The position numbers were made by a program, and so were the translations under genes. The notes under the pieces were generated by a model. That model had not been told where the DNA came from. It saw only the letters and a program-made list of their open reading frames with translations, and ran no database searches. From the NCBI GenBank assembly GCA_001244265.2, contig CDLV01000008.1, positions 124,001 through 188,000 of the forward strand: DNA of 64,000 nucleotides, in the 5' to 3' direction. This stretch comes from Microbotryum violaceum (Eukaryota). Shown here piece after piece: positions 18,815 to 37,078 of the stretch (the first letter of the stretch is position 1; every line of letters begins with the position of its first letter).

Positions 18815-19279
18815 GGCGGTGATCTTAGGTGGAGGTGGCGACAGGCGACGACAGGCGACGACAAGTCGGACATTGCAGTAGGGCGGTGTAGGAACGGGCC
18901 GTTAAGGGATCGCTCTTCTCGGTATGAAATACACGATGCGTTTCCACCTCGGGCATAAGCTCGAAACCCCCCACTCTGTGGAGGGGCTTGTACCTTATCC
19001 GCGCGTTTGGCTGAGTTGCCTATCGAAGTTTGGCCCAGAAAAGTACCACCTTGCAGTAGCATGGCAGATAAAATCAACCTATACAATCGTTGCAATAGGG
19101 TTACTCTTATGCTGACGCCTGTCATGGGCACACCTCGTCGGTCTCCATCGATTGAGTTCAGATAGTCGCCCTTACGATCAGCTTCGAGGGCAAAGCCAAC
19201 GACATCAAGGGTCCATCACTCAGCCAACACAACGCCCGAAGTGTCTACCCGTCGCTCTCGGGCTGCTCACTGGAGATCA

Positions 19280-19915
19280 CAATTACCTCAAGAAGGTCGA
19301 GTTGACCCGATTGAGTTACGCAAGAAGCACAGACTCCTCTTGGTCGACAAATTTGGCGAGGACATTGTCCCCTAGCCGGTGCAAATCGAAGCTCGAGCGG
19401 AACTTTTTCAGCTCGAGCGGTTCAAGACTCGAAATCAGTATGACGCTGTGTTCGTTATTGCTCCAACGGGTTCAGGGAAAAGCTTGATATTCCAAGCCAT
19501 GTATTTGGGTTACGGACGCCGGGCTGTGACCATAGTTGTCAGTCCTCTGACTGCGCTGAGCCAACATCAGGTAGGTTTCATTCGGTTGGCCGTTGAGGCG
19601 ACGCCGGTGCTGAGTCCCACGGTCTTGATACCTTTACAGGCCGACAATCTCAATCAAGAGCGAAAGAAAGCGGCTGTCATATGCAAGAAAACATGGGGTG
19701 ACGGAAAGCAGTAACAGCAGTTGAGCGATCCCTCCCATACTGTCTCATCCATCTTCATCGTACGCGTACATTCAATCCGCCGCAGGTTTTTGCATGCTCA
19801 CAACCCCCGTACTGATATCTTGCTACTGAAAATCTCCGACAGTCTCCAGACATGCACAATGGAGACAAGCGCTGGGCTGAGCTGATATCGAAGGACTCGT
19901 TCCGAGAACGAGTTA
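19280..19915 (+). pseudogene. RecQ-like superfamily 2 helicase N-terminal fragment
   Basis: Q-motif region 'VP*PVQIEA' with an in-frame TAG at 19373; Walker A 'VFVIAPTGSGKSLIFQ'; motif Ia 'VTIVVSPLTALSQHQ'; intron 19571-19639; 'SPDM...RWAELISKDSFRERV'. Truncated before the DExH motif. Confidence 0.8.
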
Positions 19916-20665
19916 TAAGAGGCCTTGCCGCGTTCTTGTATACTGATCTGACATGCTGGAGTGTTACCCACCTGGTTGGGGTTGGCAATCCAATTATCGA
20001 TTCGGCCTCGTGCGTCTGGGCCATCTTCGCGGGCGAGTTGTATGATGAGATCAAGTACATGTTTGAGCTGAGTCCAATTACTGTTGAAGATCTTTGTCCT
20101 ATGATTGTGAACACCATCGTGTTGTGTTGATGGGCTGAAATACCACGAGAGGTATTGACATAGCGAGAGCTTATGAAGCCGAAACCGAGCGAATAGATCC
20201 GCCTGACGGCGGCGATCCTGGCGAGTCGTCGAGTCATAGCGTCTGCGGTTGCGCGTCATTCTGAGATAAGCGCGGTGTTCCACCGAGAACAAGCGAAGAG
20301 CATAGTACCGAGAAGACGAGTGATGCGGAATGGAACGGGAGAGAAACCGATGCGCACACGCCGAAGTACGTAGTGCGCAAGCCGGCGGCTGCAGCAGCGT
20401 GCTGCCGCTCGACTCGGGACCAAATTGACCAAATTTACACATTTCAGATCATTATTTGCCTACAGATGGGGTATCCTCTTGCCGTTCGGCACATGCCATT
20501 TTTTCTAGTAGAAGATCAATACCCTAGCTGCGTTCTGGATAATTGTAAGTACTTGCCACGCTACAGAGAACCACCCCAAAATGGCCCTGAAATTTCGGAG
20601 GGCAACTGGGCCAGGCGCGCCGATAAGTTCTAAGCCCCTCCACAGAGTGAGGGCTTAGTTGAGCT

Positions 20666-28408: not shown

Positions 28409-28595
28409 AGTGACCCGTAGTGGTTTGCAATGCATGTGCGGACAACATCAGTGATCATCGCGTTCTCAACAATGCACTCGCCGGGACAACGAGATGGAGA
28501 AAAGAGATTCACAATTTGCTTCAATACAAGTCACGATGAAAGTCCTACACACAAGCGATGACCTCAAGAGGCCCCAAAAGAAAGCATAATCCCTT

Positions 28596-30317
28596 TTACG
28601 GGCTGGGCGACATGCCACGAGGACCATCGTTCTGCACCACGGCACCGGGGAATTGGGAAGCGCCCGAGTACTGGCCGAAAGGAACACCGGCACCGTTGCC
28701 GCCCTTGACGTTGATGCCGTTGCACTCCCCGAAACCCTTGGCGAGCGTCGGGATCAAGGTCGATGTGAGCAAGCTCAAGACAGTCTGGACGACCGGGCCT
28801 TGGAGGACGTTGGACAAGAATGACGGGGCCTCAGCTTGGATGTTCATCGACAGGAAGCAACCGAGCTTGGCGGGATCGGTAAATGCACTCGAATCATACA
28901 GGCCGTGGGAGAGATCGCCGACCTCGACGCCAGCGAACGAATTGACCTTGCCCGTGTTACCGCCGATGGCGCAAGTGGTGGGGTAGGCAAGGCACTGCTG
29001 CACGACACCCGTCAAGATGTCGGGCAGGGTCCAGGGGTCTTGGAGGCCACCTGAGAAGCGCATCAAGAAGAAGGGGGAGATGTCAGCCACTGACAAAGTA
29101 TGAAGAAGAAATTATGGACCCAGCGAAGGACCCCTCACGCTTGTAGAAGTTGTCGGGAATTCGCTCGTTACCGTACTTGTAGACCAATTTGCCCGACCCA
29201 TCGCGCGAGTACGAGAACCATTGCATGAGCGCCTCGGGGGTGAGCAAGCCCTCGGGGTGTTCGGACGATCGGTTGGCCATCAGAGCAAAGACAAAGTGGT
29301 GCGCCGCGGGGGTGAAAACAACACCGGCGAAGGCGGGGGAGAAGTAGTTGGGGTTGGTGTTGATCGAGTAGAGCTTGCGGCGATGTTGGTGCAACGCGAG
29401 CGAGTCCATCGTGATCAAGCAGTCCTTGTTGACCTCGCACGAGGTATCGAGGAGCTCTTGGAAGAATTTGGGGTAACTGGCGCAGTTGGAGTTCATAGTG
29501 GGGGCGAGGAAGTCACCGCGGGTGATCGAAGCGTCACCTTCGGACTTGAGATGACCATAACCGCAGATACCGGACTCCTTGCTGAGAGCGGTGCCGAGGG
29601 GCAGACCGAGGAGGTCGCCCACAGGTGCAAGGGCGGCCGTCTTGGGACTGAAACCTCCGATACTCCATTTTTGGGTGATTGGGTCACCGTCGAAGAAGGT
29701 CGTTGTCTGCTGAAGCACCTGGGTGGCGGTTTGGTCGAGACCGAACGCTTCCCAAAGCCCTGTCTCGACGGCGGCGTAGGTGGCAATACCGTCGCGAGGA
29801 AGGTACCCGTGGTTGGCGGCGGCGTTCAAACCGGCGCAGGGGCCTCGACGATCATTGGGTCCAGGTGCGATAAAGGCATGGTCGCCGGTGGTGCTGACGC
29901 GTTGTGCGTCGGCGTTGAAGCCAATTGGGAGGACTCGAGGGACACCGCCGATCTGATGACGCATCAATACAAGCAGCGAGATGTGTCAGTCGCAATTAGA
30001 AGCCTCAGGCCATGATAAAAGAGGTCGATCGTGCTGTTGTGGTCCTCCGCACGACGTCCAGGCCGAAACAGTGCACCGGCCAAGGCAGTGGCGCGCGCAT
30101 GGCCCCTAAACGCCGCGTAGGCACAGGACGCGCCGCCCAGACCTTGCGAATGTGGCACCTCGCCTTGGTCGTGAGCACTCGCCTTGGGGAATGGAACAGT
30201 AGGGATTGCTTGACGACGCGAGTTTCGCTCAGCGAGGTACTCTGCGATGTGCGGGTATGCGTCGGCGAGAGTGGTAACCGCCGACAGTGTCGCTGTGACG
30301 GCGAAGGTAATCCTCAT
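28596..30317 (-). CDS. Secreted heme-thiolate peroxidase / peroxygenase (chloroperoxidase family, long type)
   Basis: Signal peptide MRITFAVTATLSAVTTLADA; 'FIAPGPNDRRGPCAGLNAAANHGYLPRDG' (proximal Cys); 'EGDASITRGD'; 'SINTNPNYF'; 'GNERIPDNFYKR'; 'GGNTGKVNSFAGV'. Confidence 0.93.
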
Positions 30318-32099
30318 GACGACGGAGAGTAAGGATGGACAGGGTTTGTTACTGGGTCTCGGAAAGGAGAGGAGTGAAGAAGGAAAGTTGACGAAAGAAA
30401 GTGACAAGAAGGGAAGTGTGAAGAAGGAAGAAGAGCGGGAAGCACGGATGCTCCGGGGTATTTGTCGATCAAGTCCCTGGTTTGGGTTTTTCGGTTGGGG
30501 GTTGGAACGTTAGCGGACGCCCCATGTGGAGGTCGCCTCGGTCCAAGGAAGACAAAAAGGAGGGGTTTACGGGCTAGCCGTTCCGGGATTGTTGGATCAT
30601 CAACACTACGGATTCAAAGACATTGCTCAGTGAGGGGATATGCATTAAGGGCTAGCGTGCCCCGTGATGGATGGCGAGAGGGTGCGGCGAAGTCCGCCAC
30701 TCCCCTCCGTCGTCGGCTGATCTGTGTCGGTCGGGCCGTTGCGCGGATGGAGACATTTCGCTCGGGTGCCTGGCTTGTTTTTAGCTAAGGTTGGTGGTAC
30801 CTCGCTTCATGCCATCATGCCCCGCAATGGCACATCTCCCAATTGCGCTTCCTTCGGCCGCGCTCCCCAGACCCGCCGATCACTCTTTTCATCAAAAAGA
30901 TCGAGTTTTAATTGAACTAGCGCCGGTGTTTTGCGTAACAAAGAGTCCGGAGCCGACTCCGGACTCCGTAAAGTGTCCAGGCTTTTCTTCATTTGTCTTT
31001 GCTTGTTAGGTAGATACCGCCGAAGATAGCCGGCGTAATTTCGTGGCTTTCTAGACGGTTATTATTGACTTTACAGCTAGCCCCCTCACGAGGCGGCGCA
31101 ATGATCTCGGCAGCCTGGGGCCTCTGTGAAAGAACCTTCGCCCGGGGTAGCCCGCGCGGTGTACCCGAAAGGAAGGACCGCGGCGCTCTGAAGACAGCCG
31201 AAATGTAGATATTCTTTCGCCCCTAAGTCTCCTGGGAAACACCGTTCATTATTGAGCTCGGTTCGTAACCGCCACTGCCCCGACGGAGAGAAATGCTGAA
31301 CTTGACGTTTAGCGGCACCAAGCTGTGTGGCTGCAGGTGTGTCGGGTGATCGCGCGGCCCATTATTTATGTAGAAGGCGCGTGAACAACCGTGTAGACGC
31401 TTCTGTGCAACGTTGCCTCCGCCGGGCGTAAGCGTCCCAAAGACGTTCAACGCAGCTGGTAGCCCACAACGCCGACGCAGAAGGCCAGAGTTGACGTCGT
31501 TGACATTGCCGCGCGCGCGGGCAACAGGTCGATGTGCCTTGTTAGCCCGCGGGGTCGAGTGTGGGGCCCCGGGGTCGATCAAAATTAATCGTACGATCAG
31601 ATGACGGGAAACCAGCGCTTCGGCTGAAATGCACGTCATCGTCAAACAGCTGCAGCCCCGTTGGTTCCGAGTCCCGGTTGATTCTTCCTTATACGGGGTC
31701 AGAGATGGATGTCCTTGGACAGGTCTTTTGTCCTGTTGTTCTTCTGTTGAAGATCGGTGTCATTTGGAGTTCTTGGAGCAAAGCACATACCTAGGTACTA
31801 AGCTACCGCACCAGTTGCACTGATCGGCAATTTTCCTAGCACTTGCAAGTGCTGAACCAGCCCACTCGACCATTATCCCTTCCCGCGGCTCGGTAATTCA
31901 GGAAGCCATCTCAATACATTCGCGTGTCGACCGAGTCCTGGGAACCACGGAAGTGGACAAGGGAAGAAGAATTCACGTGGTGGCGCGCGAAGAGCCCCAA
32001 GTAGCGAGCCCCTGAAGCTGTAGGGATCGACCACTCACAGCTTCCTGTAACCAAGTCCGCGCTGATGCTCGAACTGCACGCAGTCGTTTTCAGGCATCA

Positions 32100-33510
32100 T
32101 GTGGATAAATTCCTGTCATTTGTATATGGTCATATGGGTTGTCTCGTCCTTCATCTGATTATTGTTCCTATTTATGGTACTTGATGTTGAGCCCATAAGG
32201 CGAGTCATGAACGCCTCTGGGACTTCAATATCCCTACTTTACTATTCTCTAATCTCTCCCTTTATTAGCTTTACGCTTCACTTTCTAGCCTTCCGCGAGT
32301 CTGTCCCTTCGTCTCTGGCCACTCTGTTCTCGTCCCTGTTCATTGGACTGAGTCGTGGTCATCATCAGATTCCACTTGAGAACATTTCTGCGACAGGTTA
32401 TGAGCCTTTCAAGCTACAAGTCGCTCCGTAGGAAGCGATGGATACGACGTCCTACAAGACCTCTCCACCACTCCAAACGCGTACGAGGAATGGTCGATTT
32501 GGATATCGAACAATCTTCGTACGCGTTTGGAGTGTTGGAGAGATAGATCTTGTAGGACGTCGTATCCATCGCTTCCTCCGGAGCGACTTGTAGCTTGAAA
32601 GGCTCATAACCTGTCGCAGAAATGTTCTCAGCAACGGATACGACGGCCTATAAGATCTATCTCTCCAACACTCCAAACGCGTACAGGGAATGGTCGATCT
32701 GGGTATCGAACAATCTTCGCCTCGATGATCTCTTGGATGTCACCACATTGGGCATTCCAGCTGTTTTAGAGATTCGCAAAGCCGGCCTGCTCACGCCCCC
32801 GGCTACTTCGCAACCGTCAACATCTGGCGGCGGTGAAGATACCTCCACCTCCGCGCCAGCCGCGCCTACTCTTTCAGCCAAGGACGCCGAGAAGCTTCGC
32901 CTCCATGCTCTTGTGCTCAAATCCAAGGATGCCAAAGCATGGAGGCTCATCAAGAATTATCTTCACCGAAATCAGATGGCCATCATCAAGAATTGTACCT
33001 CTGCTTTTGCTATGTGGCAAGCATTGTACATTCACCACTCAACTCGTTTCATGCAACTCGTCCCCGTCATCTTCCGAAGCACCTTCTCTCGACCTGGCAA
33101 CTTTAGGTCGTTCGTCCTCAACTCCACCAACGCTGTTGAAGAAGTACGGAACCTGGGGGTTGTCCTACCAGGCTTTGCGCTTGCCGCCTTGCTCATCCAC
33201 TCCCTTCCACCCGAGTGGGAGAGTATCGCAAGCAGCCCGACTTCTGAAGTCACTCTCATTACCGACTTCCAACATTTCGTTGCACTTTATGCTCAAGTCG
33301 ACCGGCGATTGACAACTTCGACCGCTTCGGCACCGAACCCATTGCGGAATTTGAGCGCATGCATTCTGAGGGCAAAGCTATGGTGGGGGCGGAACGTCGT
33401 GATCACTCCAAGCTGTTCTGCAAGAATTGCAACGCTCAGGGTCATAGTACCAAGTGGTCTGGCTGTCCCTCCAAGTCTAATTGGGAGTCTGATGGATTCA
33501 AAGCCATGAT
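32100..33510 (+). mobile_element. Ty1/Copia LTR retrotransposon relic (5' LTR end, PBS, gag; no pol in view)
   Basis: LTR end ...CA at 32395 followed directly by GGTTATGAGCC (32396-32406), the Ty5/copia-type half-tRNAiMet PBS. Gag ORF 32622-33509 ('YREWSIWV...KDAKAWRLIKNYL...CTSAFAMWQAL...LIHSLPPEWESI'). Frameshifted zinc knuckle CKNCNAQGHSTKWSGC at ~33419. The left LTR boundary is a guess. Confidence 0.85.
32377..32630. repeat. Long inverted repeat (arms ~110 bp, loop ~30 nt) followed by a third, direct copy
   Basis: 32377-32486 is the near-perfect reverse complement of 32517-32630. 32636-32719 is a direct copy of ~32440-32519. Confidence 0.95.
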
Positions 33511-33903
33511 GGTCGGCTTCAATCACTGGTCAATCTGATTCACACATTCGGTCATATGGGCAACTCAATCTGATCCCCCGTCTCTATTCTCCATGGTCTT
33601 ATCGGTATTTGTTTCAATCCGATCCACCTTCTCTATCGTTCGGTCTTATCGCGATCCTTTTCAACTGCATACATCGATCCATTTTCCCCCCCCCCCCTTG
33701 GTCTATTTACGCGATTGTTCCCCAGGCTGCACCCAACCGCATCTGGTGGATTGGTACATCCTCACATCTGACGAACGTCCCACAATAAATTACTTCTGCA
33801 CCCTGCTTTGAATGCGCGTTGTAACACGAGGAGGTGAGGATTACTCCATAAAAGCAATTCGTCAGGTTCGCGCTGTCACGGTCCGACGCGCTCGCGAGCC
33901 GAC

Positions 33904-34908
33904 GTGATGCACGCGCGGTGTCGGTTCATCTCACGCCGAAGCAGCGCCGTGCTGGTGACCCCTCTCGCTCATTCCTCATCTCGAACTATCCCATCGGATC
34001 AACGATCGACAATCGACGAGCAACCACGGGAATCTTGCCCTATGACAGCACAGACGTCGTCTGCATTCACCCTTTCCGACCACCCTAGCTCTCGATCATC
34101 GACGCTCCTCTCAATATCGATCAAGTCCGAAGAGGACGAGACAGGAGAGACTGATCCGAAGCTCCTCGATCTCAGCTTGACCCGCAGCCACGATGGTGAC
34201 GAGCCCGACCAGGAAATTGAAGAACTTGGAGCTTTTGCATTAAATGAGACGAGGTTGATCTTATTGGGACAGGAGGTTGTTCAAGTCTCGTTGGATCTTG
34301 ATGGGTGAGTGTGGTGCATCTGTCCTCAAGTGAAGGCGGGCCCGATTCGTACGACACGACAGAGGCTTGTGCGACGTACGACGGAGAAATTGATCTCGGA
34401 CTACCAAATATGTTGGACCGAGTACAGAACCCGCGAGACGGATTTGAAACCTTTGCTGAAGGTCCACGAGCAAAGACGTTCGCAGATCACAGTGAGTAGC
34501 TCTTCTTTCGTCTGGATACGTCTGATCGGATTCTCGAACAAGGACGGGCCAGGCTTCGCTCCCTCCGACCTGACTCCACACAGCCAATTCCGCACTCATC
34601 CCTACCGTCAGGACATCATCGTCACCATCTTACACCTCCAACTCCATCACCATCCTCTTCCAGACCATTTCATTCTCCTCGACTCGGAATTCGAACTCAA
34701 CTGTTGTAAATCTCTCGACCCTTCGTTCCAGCGAGACCCCTCCGAACTACACCTCCTGATCATTTTTCTCCTGCCATCTACAGATCAACAAAGTTGGGCT
34801 GTGATGCGATCGAGGTGGTCGTGGTCTTTGAACGGTCGACCGATCGAGGGAAGGAAAAAAAAGTGGCGCTTCGTACTGGGTGCGCCTCTGAAACCAAGTC
34901 TCGTGTGA
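33904..34908 (+). pseudogene. Possible gene fragment or pseudogene with one in-frame TGA
   Basis: Single reading frame 33904-34908 interrupted only by TGA 34306-34308; candidate in-frame intron 34492-34611; protein-like composition but no recognised family. Confidence 0.35.
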
Positions 34909-35067
34909 TATGGCTTTTATCACATCACCCCCCGTTGAAGCATGCACGATGTCGCTTTGCTTTGCTTGCACGGAGTCCAGGGCTAGATATAGTAGCAAAC
35001 GAGGTGGATTGCAGGCAAAAAACGAAAAAGGTCGTGAAAGAGGGCAGAACAAGATGAAACGCAGTTT

Positions 35068-37078
<2,011 letters not shown>

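What the first reader, a model, noticed from the sequence alone, without database searches (positions are those of the whole stretch)
32377..32720. Foldback triplication of a Copia LTR end, PBS and gag start: candidate hairpin-RNA silencer locus
Seen in sequence: the U5 end, the PBS (GGTTATGAGCC) and the first gag codons (ATG at 32438) are followed after a ~30-nt loop by their ~113-bp reverse complement, then by a third, direct copy that leads into the gag ORF. This is a direct-inverted-direct structure of the kind expected from double template switching. Any LTR-driven transcript would fold into more than 100 bp of dsRNA that sequesters the PBS. Established knowledge: inverted-duplicated transposon derivatives such as maize Mu killer trigger siRNA silencing of their family in trans. 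Inference: this pol-less relic could be a natural silencer of its Copia family.
Basis: partly seen in the sequence, partly recalled or inferred. Interest (0 to 1): 0.78.

Follow-up and report, generated by a model that had tools for sequence, protein, structure and literature searches.

The report
Foldback scar in dead Copia relic
A broken, gag-only remnant of a Copia retrotransposon in the anther-smut fungus Microbotryum lychnidis-dioicae carries a real direct-inverted-direct repeat at its front end that would fold into a long RNA hairpin if transcribed, but nothing found here shows that it is used, so it is best read as an ordinary copying error.

Summary
The repeat is real. Copy A (32377-32519), inverted copy B (32517-32630) and direct copy C (32630-32719 onward) give a 2x-3x-2x copy-number pattern. 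As RNA they would fold into a 118-bp hairpin. The window is Microbotryum lychnidis-dioicae. The ORF after copy C is a Copia-type gag, annotated MVLG_03088. There is no pol and no second LTR.

The ATG at 32438 is a derived change, not the old gag start. That start is probably the ATG inside the PBS-like motif (32400). The LTR is inferred only.

The copies have diverged from each other, so an assembly artefact is unlikely. The junctions carry 3-nt and 1-nt microhomology, which fits template switching.

The species has an expressed Dicer, two Argonautes and an RdRP. Against the silencer idea:
- I found no evidence of transcription.
- I found no cognate family: 7 relatives among 1.84 billion representative proteins, none other from this species.
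- Arm A is decaying.

Verdict: a mutational scar in a dead, low-copy element. A silencer role is possible but unsupported (about 6%).

The parts
32101..32395 (+). Putative 5' LTR remnant. The end is fairly firm; the start is a guess.
   Evidence: Inference from the sequence. It ends ...GCGACA directly before the PBS-like motif and would begin TGTGG where G+C drops. No second copy exists in the window, and a Smith-Waterman search for a 3' LTR was at background. CpG o/e is 0.72.
32396..32406 (+). PBS-like motif GGTTATGAGCC. It contains the ATG at 32400-32402, the probable ancestral gag start codon.
   Evidence: Sequence. Complementarity to the anticodon loop of initiator tRNA-Met is recalled, not tested: there is no tRNA gene in the window. 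P0005, P0006 (from its internal Met) and P0007 read MSP 20 residues before the conserved I-x-L-S. The window has 38 nt where 39 are expected.
32377..32519 (+). Copy A (direct): the last 19 nt of the putative LTR, the PBS-like motif, and the leader and first gag codons. It is decayed.
   Evidence: Private changes are a TAG at 32429-32431 (B has GAG), a 4-nt deletion after 32458, and substitutions at 32460 and 32468.
32487..32516 (.). Spacer between the homology arms. It is itself a weak quasi-palindrome with a TCGAT/ATCGA core.
   Evidence: (I3). The same stretch in copy C folds as DNA at -5.9 kcal/mol, z -1.9, and 8 of 200 shuffles fold as well.
32517..32630 (-). Copy B (inverted): the reverse complement of 32377-32486. 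It has no private change in the stretch shared by all three copies.
   Evidence: It overlaps the end of A by TCG (32517-32519) and the start of C by one A (32630).
32630..32719 (+). Copy C (direct): repeats 32434-32519 and continues into gag.
   Evidence: It is 84.4% identical to A and has 6 private sites in the stretch shared by all three copies.
32622..33509 (+). Copia-type gag ORF (open from stop to stop over 32610-33509). Annotated as MVLG_03088 (32622-33312, with an intron). Its ATG lies inside inverted copy B.
   Evidence: Pfam PF14223, E 3.7e-10. 100% identity to P0004. tblastn to relatives at 55-70% identity.
33368..33514 (+). CCHC zinc-knuckle remnant of gag, in a different reading frame from the rest. 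Last detectable part of the element.
   Evidence: tblastn of P0005 residues 259-310. Sequence read.

Best explanation
The locus is a dead, low-copy, gag-only remnant of a Ty1/Copia-type retrotransposon in Microbotryum lychnidis-dioicae. It consists of a putative 5' LTR, a PBS-like motif, and gag through a frameshifted zinc knuckle. It has no pol and no 3' LTR.

Its 5' end was rearranged by fold-back template switching during DNA synthesis. Synthesis ran through the leader to 32519, and the nascent end snapped back at a weak quasi-palindrome using a 3-nt TCG overlap. It then copied 110 nt in reverse, back to 19 nt inside the putative LTR, and resumed on the forward template.

There are two ways this could have happened:
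- One event that re-entered 86 nt upstream, giving a miniature duplication / inverted triplication / duplication.
- My slight preference: an older 86-bp tandem duplication of 32434-32519, followed by a classical fold-back insertion exactly after the quasi-palindrome.

The hairpin is a by-product with no demonstrated role. If the region is transcribed in either direction, the RNA would form a 118-bp stem. That stem buries the PBS-like motif and the only in-frame ATG of the gag ORF (32622), and it would be a plausible Dicer substrate.

Shown here: the anatomy, the junctions, the divergence pattern, the gag identity, the absence of pol, and the fold. Inferred: the LTR, the order of events, which polymerase made the error, and the lack of function.
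For: Anatomy and copy-number pattern of 2x (32377-32433), 3x (32434-32486) and 2x (32487-32519).

Microhomology at both junctions, and a quasi-palindrome at the first switch that is also present in copy C.

Divergence in the stretch shared by all three copies:
- 6 sites where A = B' and C differs.
- 3 events where B' = C and A differs.
- 0 sites where A = C and B' differs.
An exact test of equal branch lengths gives p = 0.05, or 0.11 if the adjacent GA/AG change counts as one event. So C looks older than the A/B split, which fits two steps.

The relatives read straight from MSP into gag in 3 of 3 proteins that contain this N-terminal stretch (it begins P0005 and P0007 and starts at an internal Met in the longer model P0006), so the foldback is private to this copy.

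Relic status:
- Copia gag by Pfam.
- The gag of a true Copia polyprotein (P0009; RVT_2) matches 32712-33302, but its pol matches nothing in the window at E <= 1.
- The zinc knuckle is out of frame.
- No 3' LTR: alignment score 44, against a shuffle mean of 38.6 and maximum of 62.

Low copy number:
- No other copy in the window.
- Only 7 proteins at E <= 1e-3 among 1.84 billion representatives.
- 1, 4 and 0 hits in the three length classes of the 5.8-billion-protein search, with MVLG_03088 the only one from this species.
- The gene survived the annotators' repeat filter, which removed genes with similarity to repeats or 7 or more hits to other genes.

No transcription signal:
- The gene model spans only its coding region from ATG to stop, with no UTRs.
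- It is absent from the differential-expression table in Perlin 2015.
- It is absent from the G3 2017 differential-expression tables, which list both flanking genes.
Against: - Absence from differential-expression tables does not show absence of transcription. No raw RNA-seq or small-RNA data could be examined.
- The rest of the genome could not be searched, so unannotated cognate copies may exist. Repeat-like genes were deliberately removed from the proteome.
- The arms are much more alike (3 substitutions and one indel over 110 nt) than either is to C, and arm B has no private change in the stretch shared by all three copies. Besides a younger age, this could reflect arm-to-arm gene conversion or selection for pairing.
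- The gag ORF stays open for 299 codons, while the 143-nt copy A already has a stop and a frameshift. This could hint at some constraint.
- The species has an expressed RNAi machinery.
Confidence: 0.8

Rival explanations
1. One reading: the locus is a natural hairpin-RNA silencer. The LTR, or a neighbouring promoter, drives a transcript whose 118-bp stem is diced into siRNAs. These act in trans on the U5 / PBS / gag-start of active members of the same Copia family, as Mu killer does for MuDR in maize.
For: - Perfect duplex runs of 52, 30 and 21 bp.
- M. lychnidis-dioicae has one Dicer, two Argonautes and one RdRP, all expressed in the three conditions studied (Perlin 2015, passages).
- TE-derived hairpins are an accepted trigger of silencing (passages of PMC11624286 citing Slotkin 2003 and 2005).
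- The arms are more alike than either is to copy C.
- The arms are not CpG-depleted (o/e 1.3).
Against: - No evidence of transcription.
- No target family found: nothing else in the window, and no other protein from this species among all hits.
- The gene escaped a filter that removes anything similar to repeats.
- Arm A carries four private lesions, so pairing is eroding.
- The flanking genes point away from the hairpin: the peroxidase is on the minus strand upstream, and MVLG_03087 appears to be on the plus strand downstream (inferred from ORFs, with no direct strand information). Read-through from them is therefore unlikely.
- The LTR promoter is unproven.
Confidence: 0.06
2. The foldback arose during reverse transcription and was integrated as an aberrant cDNA, rather than arising later in the chromosome. 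The nascent plus-strand DNA self-primed after copying U5, the PBS and the gag start, then returned to the template, possibly one derived from a second co-packaged RNA.
For: - The rearrangement sits exactly at the U5 / PBS / gag-start, where strand transfers occur (sequence).
- A return point upstream of the departure point (point 4 before point 1) was never seen among replication-type short template switches in human-chimp comparisons (PMC5453318, passages). This makes a one-step chromosomal event less ordinary.
- A switch to a second, diverged template would explain why C differs from A and B at 6 sites.
Against: - Both arms share a 1-nt loss that puts the PBS ATG out of frame (38 nt against the expected 39) and the derived ACG-to-ATG change. 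This suggests the template was already a decayed copy.
- A two-step chromosomal route (tandem duplication, then the commonest class of template switch) explains geometry and divergence without reverse transcriptase.
- No 3' LTR or target-site duplication can be identified.
Confidence: 0.15
3. The foldback is an assembly or library artefact of the 454/Newbler assembly.
For: - The assembly is from 454 reads with Newbler (Perlin 2015, passages).
- Foldback chimeras are a known artefact class (recalled).
Against: - An artefactual foldback copies one molecule, so its arms should be identical. Here A and B differ by 3 substitutions and a 4-nt indel, and C differs from both at 6 more sites. None of these is a homopolymer-length error.
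- The whole 343-bp structure is short enough to be spanned by single 454 reads (inference).
- Whole-genome amplification was used only for the mating-type chromosome preparations, and this gene is listed as autosomal.
Confidence: 0.03
4. The gag ORF is a domesticated or self-restricting gag, in the manner of truncated-Gag copy-number control or gag-derived restriction factors (recalled). It would be translated from the new ATG at 32622 that the inverted copy happened to supply.
For: - The ORF is open for 299 codons with the gag domain intact.
- The inverted copy of the LTR end provides an in-frame ATG, which the annotators used.
- Copy A decayed faster per base than the ORF appears to have done.
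Against: - The zinc knuckle is frameshifted.
- The closest relatives (55-70% identity) are themselves short or chimeric gene models.
- The ATG is buried in a stem of -220 kcal/mol if transcription starts upstream.
- No expression evidence.
- dN/dS could not be computed, because no DNA of the relatives was available.
Confidence: 0.04

Closest known systems
Mu killer (Muk) of maize: a natural inverted duplication of the 5' part of MuDR that silences the family (Slotkin et al. 2003, 2005; seen only as cited in passages and the reference list of PMC11624286)
   Same: A partial copy of a transposon's 5' end (terminal repeat plus the start of the first ORF) is present in inverted duplicate, so a transcript would be a long hairpin.
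   Different: Muk derives from a DNA transposon, has far longer arms (recalled), is shown to be transcribed from a flanking promoter and processed to small RNAs, and has a genetic effect on active MuDR. Here the arms are 110 nt. Transcription, small RNAs and any target family are all unshown, and the element is a Copia relic in a fungus.
Short-range template-switch mutations, four-point model (Loytynoja and Goldman 2017, PMC5453318, passages read). Template switching that creates RNA hairpins and miRNA precursors (PMC8794818 and 10.1101/2023.04.19.537475, search listing only)
   Same: [quoted passage not shown] If an 86-bp tandem duplication came first, the foldback is their commonest repeat-creating class (3-2-1-4).
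   Different: The inverted fragment here is 110 nt, much longer than the events they describe as spanning tens of bases. If it was one event, the switch-point order is 3-4-2-1, with point 4 before point 1. They report that class as possible in theory but not observed.
DUP-TRP/INV-DUP rearrangements (duplication / inverted triplication / duplication) of human genomic disorders (recalled; no paper read here)
   Same: The same 2x-3x-2x copy-number pattern with the middle copy inverted. The first switch is at an inverted repeat and the second has minimal microhomology.
   Different: The scale is about 340 bp here, against kilobases to megabases. The inverted repeat used here is a weak 5-12-bp quasi-palindrome, not a low-copy repeat pair.
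Ty5 and Drosophila copia, elements primed by the anticodon stem-loop half of initiator tRNA-Met (Ke et al. 1999; Kikuchi et al. 1986; titles seen in reference lists; text not held)
   Same: Copia-type gag. A motif directly after the putative LTR end contains TTATGAG, the complement of an initiator-tRNA anticodon loop (recalled).
   Different: Priming is untested. In this family the ATG inside that motif appears to serve as the gag start codon (the MSP stretch of relatives). I do not know whether this has been described for Ty5 or copia.

Membership tests
Ty1/Copia LTR retrotransposon | Copia-type Gag domain | tested here: met
   PF14223 Retrotran_gag_2, E 3.7e-10, 40 bits against a cut-off of 27. 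31% identity to the gag of P0009, which carries RVT_2 and other Copia pol domains.
Ty1/Copia LTR retrotransposon | pol with protease, integrase, and RVT_2 reverse transcriptase / RNase H | tested here: not met
   0 Pfam families in 9 plus-strand ORFs between 33510 and 36720. P0009 residues beyond 210 match nothing in the window at E <= 1. This is a remnant, not a complete member.
Ty1/Copia LTR retrotransposon | Two long terminal repeats | tested here: not met
   0 direct-repeat families of >=60 nt in the window. blastn with word size 9 finds none. Local alignment of 32040-32400 against 33480-34200 scores 44, with a null mean of 38 and maximum of 62.
Ty1/Copia LTR retrotransposon | Primer-binding site complementary to a tRNA directly after the 5' LTR | tested here: inconclusive
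   GGTTATGAGCC follows ...ACA. The match to initiator tRNA-Met is recalled. No tRNA gene in the window to compare with.
TE-derived hairpin silencer (Mu killer type) | Inverted duplication of part of a transposon | tested here: met
   Arms 32377-32486 and 32517-32630, with 3 substitutions and one 4-nt indel between them.
TE-derived hairpin silencer (Mu killer type) | Transcribed across both arms | not testable with these tools
   No read data. Indirect only: the gene model has no UTRs, and it is absent from the differential-expression tables, the second of which lists both neighbours.
TE-derived hairpin silencer (Mu killer type) | Processed into small RNAs by Dicer | not testable with these tools
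   The species has an expressed Dicer, two Argonautes and an RdRP (PMC4469406). I found no small-RNA data for the species among the papers listed by my search (listing only).
TE-derived hairpin silencer (Mu killer type) | Active cognate elements exist and are silenced in trans | tested here: inconclusive
   No other copy in the window. No other protein of the family from this species in any protein search. The rest of the genome could not be searched, and repeat genes were filtered from its proteome.
Template-switch / fold-back rearrangement | Middle segment is the reverse complement of adjacent sequence, with microhomology at the junctions and an inverted repeat at the first switch | tested here: met
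   TCG shared at 32517-32519 and one A at 32630. The quasi-palindrome is also present in copy C, though weak: -5.9 kcal/mol, with 8 of 200 shuffles as good.

The most novel reading that the evidence does not exclude
This would be the first natural transposon-derived hairpin silencer in a basidiomycete fungus. The putative LTR, or the divergent promoter region it shares with the infection-induced peroxidase gene, would transcribe the foldback. Dicer MVLG_01202 would cut the 118-bp stem, and the siRNAs would target the PBS and gag start of the family. That could have driven the family to the near-extinction seen in the protein searches, and the high similarity of the two arms would be maintained by selection or by arm-to-arm conversion.
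Probability: 0.06. Interest if true: 0.65.

Novelty: new member of a known kind. Interest (0 to 1): 0.25.

Why it matters
As it stands, this matters mainly for annotation. MVLG_03088 is not an ordinary host gene. It is the gag of a dead Copia remnant, and its predicted start codon was created by an inverted copy of the element's own putative LTR end.

It is also a clean small-scale example of a duplication / inverted triplication / duplication, with readable junctions and enough divergence between copies to order the events.

If the hairpin were shown to give small RNAs that act on related elements, it would be a fungal counterpart of maize Mu killer. It would also give a tractable system for studying how RNAi first recognises a retrotransposon. 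No evidence found here points that way.

Tried and rejected
- **3' LTR.** I looked with the repeat finder, blastn with word size 9 and Smith-Waterman with two null sets and found nothing above background. An 11-nt match (GGTCATATGGG at about 32128 and 33553), seen by eye, is therefore treated as chance.
- **Self-hit filter.** The script's filter for self-hits also removed the symmetric inverted A/B hit, so that call speaks only to other copies. The inverted repeat rests.
- **RNA genes.** There were no Rfam matches at gathering thresholds and no tRNA genes.
- **RIP-like or CpG hypermutation as the source of the differences.** Three of the 6 sites at which C differs from A and B' lie in CpG dinucleotides (32437, 32439, 32485). 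At 32439 the change appears to be on the A/B' side, because C and the M. saponariae relative keep ACG/Thr. The arms are not CpG-depleted (o/e 1.3; whole relic 0.94; window 1.11 +/- 0.10). There is therefore no hypermutation signature, and the test is weak.
- **Expression evidence.** MVLG_03088 occurs in no main text of the library. In supplements it occurs only in the gene list of Perlin 2015. That search covered 12 of 24 files, and I then searched file 15, the differential-expression table, on its own. Files 13, 14 and 16-24 were not searched. It does not occur in the 8 supplementary files of PMC5919739 or the 1 file of PMC13608869.
- **Ke et al. 1999 on the Ty5 primer.** The paper is not held.
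- **Public collections.** The genome-contig collection holds only bacteria and archaea, so it was not used. No DNA of relatives could therefore be obtained, and neither the orthologous loci nor other genomic copies were examined.
- **Prior reports.** A search for a fungal example of a retrotransposon inverted duplication giving hairpin siRNAs returned 2 papers, both on plants.
Full report
**1. What is in the sequence**

The described structure is present at the stated coordinates.

- The repeat finder on 31000-35000 gives inverted arms 32377-32465 / 32542-32630 (89 nt, 97% complementary) and 32484-32573 / 32630-32719 (90 nt, 81%).
- It gives an inner pair 32461-32498 / 32505-32542 (38 nt, 89%, 6 nt apart).
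- It gives direct repeats between the first and third copies (59 nt at 92% and 32 nt at 81%).
- In the whole window at >=60 nt there are no direct-repeat families and three inverted pairs, two of which are this locus.

A three-way alignment fixes the parts. Copy A is 32377-32519. Copy B is the reverse complement of 32517-32630. Copy C runs from 32630 to 32719 and straight on into an ORF.

Counting copies:
- 32377-32433 is present twice (A, and inverted in B).
- 32434-32486 is present three times (A, inverted B, C).
- 32487-32519 is present twice (A, C).

The A-to-B junction shares TCG (32517-32519). The B-to-C junction shares one A (32630).

As RNA, 32377-32630 folds into 118 pairs with perfect runs of 52, 30, 21 (one G-U) and 7 bp, at -220.9 kcal/mol. 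The same leader without the inverted copy folds at -55.3 kcal/mol. For 32340-32760 the z-score against 100 shuffles is -24.4, and none folds as well.

**2. What the locus is**

The stop-to-stop ORF 32610-33509 matches Pfam PF14223, the gag polypeptide of Copia-type LTR elements (E 3.7e-10, 40 bits, cut-off 27). None of nine further plus-strand ORFs between 33510 and 36720 matches any family.

Protein searches identify the window. The ORF is 100% identical to MVLG_03088 of Microbotryum lychnidis-dioicae p1A1 Lamole (P0004, 194 aa). The next relatives are from M. saponariae (P0007, 70%) and M. silenes-dioicae (P0005, P0006 and P0003, 53-55%).

The family is very small:
- An exhaustive phmmer search over 1.84 billion representatives finds 7 proteins at E <= 1e-3 and 3 at E <= 1e-10.
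- The search for shorter proteins finds none.

One distant hit, P0009 (1174 aa), is a genuine Copia polyprotein with RVT_2, the pre-integrase domain and others. Its gag matches window 32712-33302 at 31% identity. Its pol matches nothing in the window at E <= 1.

Relatives with a complete gag align to 32652-33323 in one frame. Their CCHC zinc-knuckle region aligns to 33368-33514 in another frame (sequence read). After 33514 nothing of the element is detectable.

A 3' LTR was sought in three ways and not found. The locus is therefore a putative 5' LTR, a PBS-like motif and a frameshifted gag, about 1.4 kb in all. It lies between a family-2 peroxidase gene on the minus strand and another gene downstream, with a proteasome ATPase gene beyond that.

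**3.

*The ATG at 32438 is not the old gag start.* Copy C has ACG there. The M. saponariae relative has Thr at the aligned position. So ATG is a derived CpG-to-TpG change shared by A and B.

Three relatives contain the stretch MSP exactly 20 residues before the conserved I-x-L-S motif. It is the N-terminus of P0005 and P0007 and starts at an internal Met in the longer model P0006. In the window, an ATG lies inside the PBS-like motif (GGTT-ATG-AGCC, ATG at 32400-32402). It sits 38 nt before position 32438, where the relatives imply 39 nt. The old start codon was probably this ATG, and both A and B carry a 1-nt loss after it.

This rests on predicted protein N-termini from other species. No DNA of the relatives was available.

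*The 'LTR' is inferred only.* The evidence is the ...ACA end next to the PBS-like motif and a drop in G+C at about 32101. No second copy confirms it. That GGTTATGAGCC complements the anticodon loop of initiator tRNA-Met, as in Ty5 and Drosophila copia, is my recollection. I saw only the titles of the relevant papers. One paper is not held, and the window has no tRNA gene to compare with.

*The annotated start codon lies in the inverted arm.* The start of MVLG_03088 (32622) is the reverse complement of the putative LTR end, which happens to read ATG in frame with copy C.

**4. Is it real or an artefact?**

The assembly is 454/Newbler, and I could not look at reads. However, the three copies differ from one another:
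- A and B differ by three substitutions and a 4-nt indel.
- C differs from both at six further sites.
- None of these differences is a homopolymer-length error.

A chimeric foldback of one molecule would have identical arms. I put the artefact reading at about 3%.

**5. How it arose**

The geometry is that of template switching. Synthesis proceeds to 32519, continues on the complementary sequence from 32486 back to 32377, and then resumes forward at the equivalent of 32434.

The first switch lies at a short quasi-palindrome that is also present in copy C. It is weak there: -5.9 kcal/mol as DNA, and 8 of 200 shuffles fold as well.

In the four-point notation of Loytynoja and Goldman, a single event would have the order 3-4-2-1. 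In the passages I read, they report that classes with point 4 before point 1 were not observed in human-chimp data.

The pattern of differences suggests two steps instead. In the stretch shared by all three copies:
- There are 6 sites where A and B agree against C.
- There are 3 events where B and C agree against A.
- There are no sites where A and C agree against B.
- Equal branch lengths give p = 0.05, or 0.11 if one dinucleotide change is counted once.

The protein outgroups place several of the C-specific states as derived in C. They place the ATG at 32438 as derived in A plus B.

The two-step account is an older 86-bp tandem duplication of 32434-32519, followed by an ordinary fold-back insertion exactly after the quasi-palindrome (their commonest repeat-creating class, 3-2-1-4). 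It explains both geometry and divergence. The statistics are weak. A single event followed by arm-to-arm conversion, or a reverse-transcription error using two templates, cannot be excluded.

Copy A has since acquired a TAG stop (B keeps GAG, matching Glu in the relative), a slippage deletion of 4 nt, and two substitutions. Copy B has no private change.

The three relatives that contain the N-terminal stretch read straight from it into gag. The foldback is therefore private to this copy and is not a feature of the family.

**6. Does it act as a silencer?**

For the idea:
- The stem is long and largely perfect.
- Perlin et al. 2015 report one Dicer, two Argonautes and one RdRP, all expressed in the conditions examined (passages).
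- TE-derived hairpins are an accepted silencing trigger.

Against, or at least not for it:
- The gene model spans exactly its coding region, 691 bp from ATG to stop, with no UTRs.
- The gene is not in the differential-expression table of Perlin 2015.
- It is not in the 8 supplementary files of the G3 2017 infection time course. That table does list both flanking genes, MVLG_03087 and MVLG_03089, which are strongly induced late in infection. These tables list only differentially expressed genes, so this is absence of evidence.
- No paper in the library mentions the gene in its main text.
- No other copy of the arms or the gag exists in the window.
- No other protein of this family from this species appears in any search.
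- The annotators removed genes with similarity to repeats or with seven or more hits to other genes, yet this one survived. This suggests a low-copy or single-copy family with little left to silence.
- CpG content in the arms is not depleted (o/e 1.3, against 1.11 +/- 0.10 for the window). There is therefore no trace of long-term methylation-driven or RIP-like decay. This test is weak.

I could not search the rest of the genome, any small-RNA data, or any orthologous locus.

**7. Comparison with known things**

In form, the locus resembles maize Mu killer: an inverted partial duplication of a transposon's 5' end. It meets only the first of Mu killer's four defining features. The other three are untestable here or inconclusive.

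In origin, it belongs with template-switch mutations that create hairpins, and with the duplication / inverted triplication / duplication pattern known at much larger scale (recalled).

It is a remnant of a Copia element, not a complete member. The gag feature is met, while pol and paired LTRs were tested and not met.

A search for a fungal precedent of a retrotransposon inverted duplication giving hairpin siRNAs returned two papers, both on plants.

**8. Verdict**

The functional part is speculation that the available evidence does not support.

The most likely reading (about 0.8) is a neutral fold-back scar in a dead, low-copy Copia gag relic that has been annotated as a gene. The silencer reading keeps about 0.06.

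I score interest at 0.25. It is a tidy example and a useful annotation correction, with a cheap set of follow-up tests, but it is not surprising to a specialist as it stands.

Noticed in passing
window 32396-32406 (ATG at 32400-32402): The probable start codon of this Copia family's gag lies inside the PBS-like motif. P0005 and P0007 begin with MSP, and P0006 has the same stretch from an internal Met, at the matching distance from the conserved I-x-L-S. The window copy is 1 nt short of being in frame. A PBS complementary to the initiator-tRNA anticodon loop necessarily contains ATG. I do not know whether its use as the gag start has been described.
   Followed up: partly
window 32622-33312: The annotated gene MVLG_03088 ('hypothetical protein') is the gag of the relic. 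Its predicted ATG is created by the inverted copy of the putative LTR end, and its model includes an intron (33144-33246) that skips part of the gag domain. It escaped the annotators' repeat filter.
   Followed up: yes
window 28496-30656 and 34166-35345 (coordinates converted from scaffold 27): Both genes flanking the relic are strongly induced late in plant infection in the G3 2017 table. MVLG_03089, a family-2 peroxidase, rises from about 14-27 to 82-351. MVLG_03087, a hypothetical protein, rises from 0 to 84-183. The relic between them is not in that table.
   Followed up: no
window 18965-19031 and 20590-20656: A third inverted repeat in the window (67 nt, 79% complementary, 1558 nt between the arms). 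One ORF between the arms (19376-19714, plus strand) has a weak DEAD-box helicase match (E 7e-7). Its nature is not determined.
   Followed up: partly
protein P0003 (M. silenes-dioicae), not in the window: The gene model joins Gypsy-type pol domains (RVT_1, RNase H-like and integrase zinc-binding domains, precomputed Pfam) to this Copia-type gag at its C-terminus. This is probably two adjacent or nested elements merged by the annotation.
   Followed up: no
window about 33686-33697: A run of about 12 C in the intergenic stretch just after the relic. In a 454 assembly, the length of such a homopolymer is unreliable.
   Followed up: no
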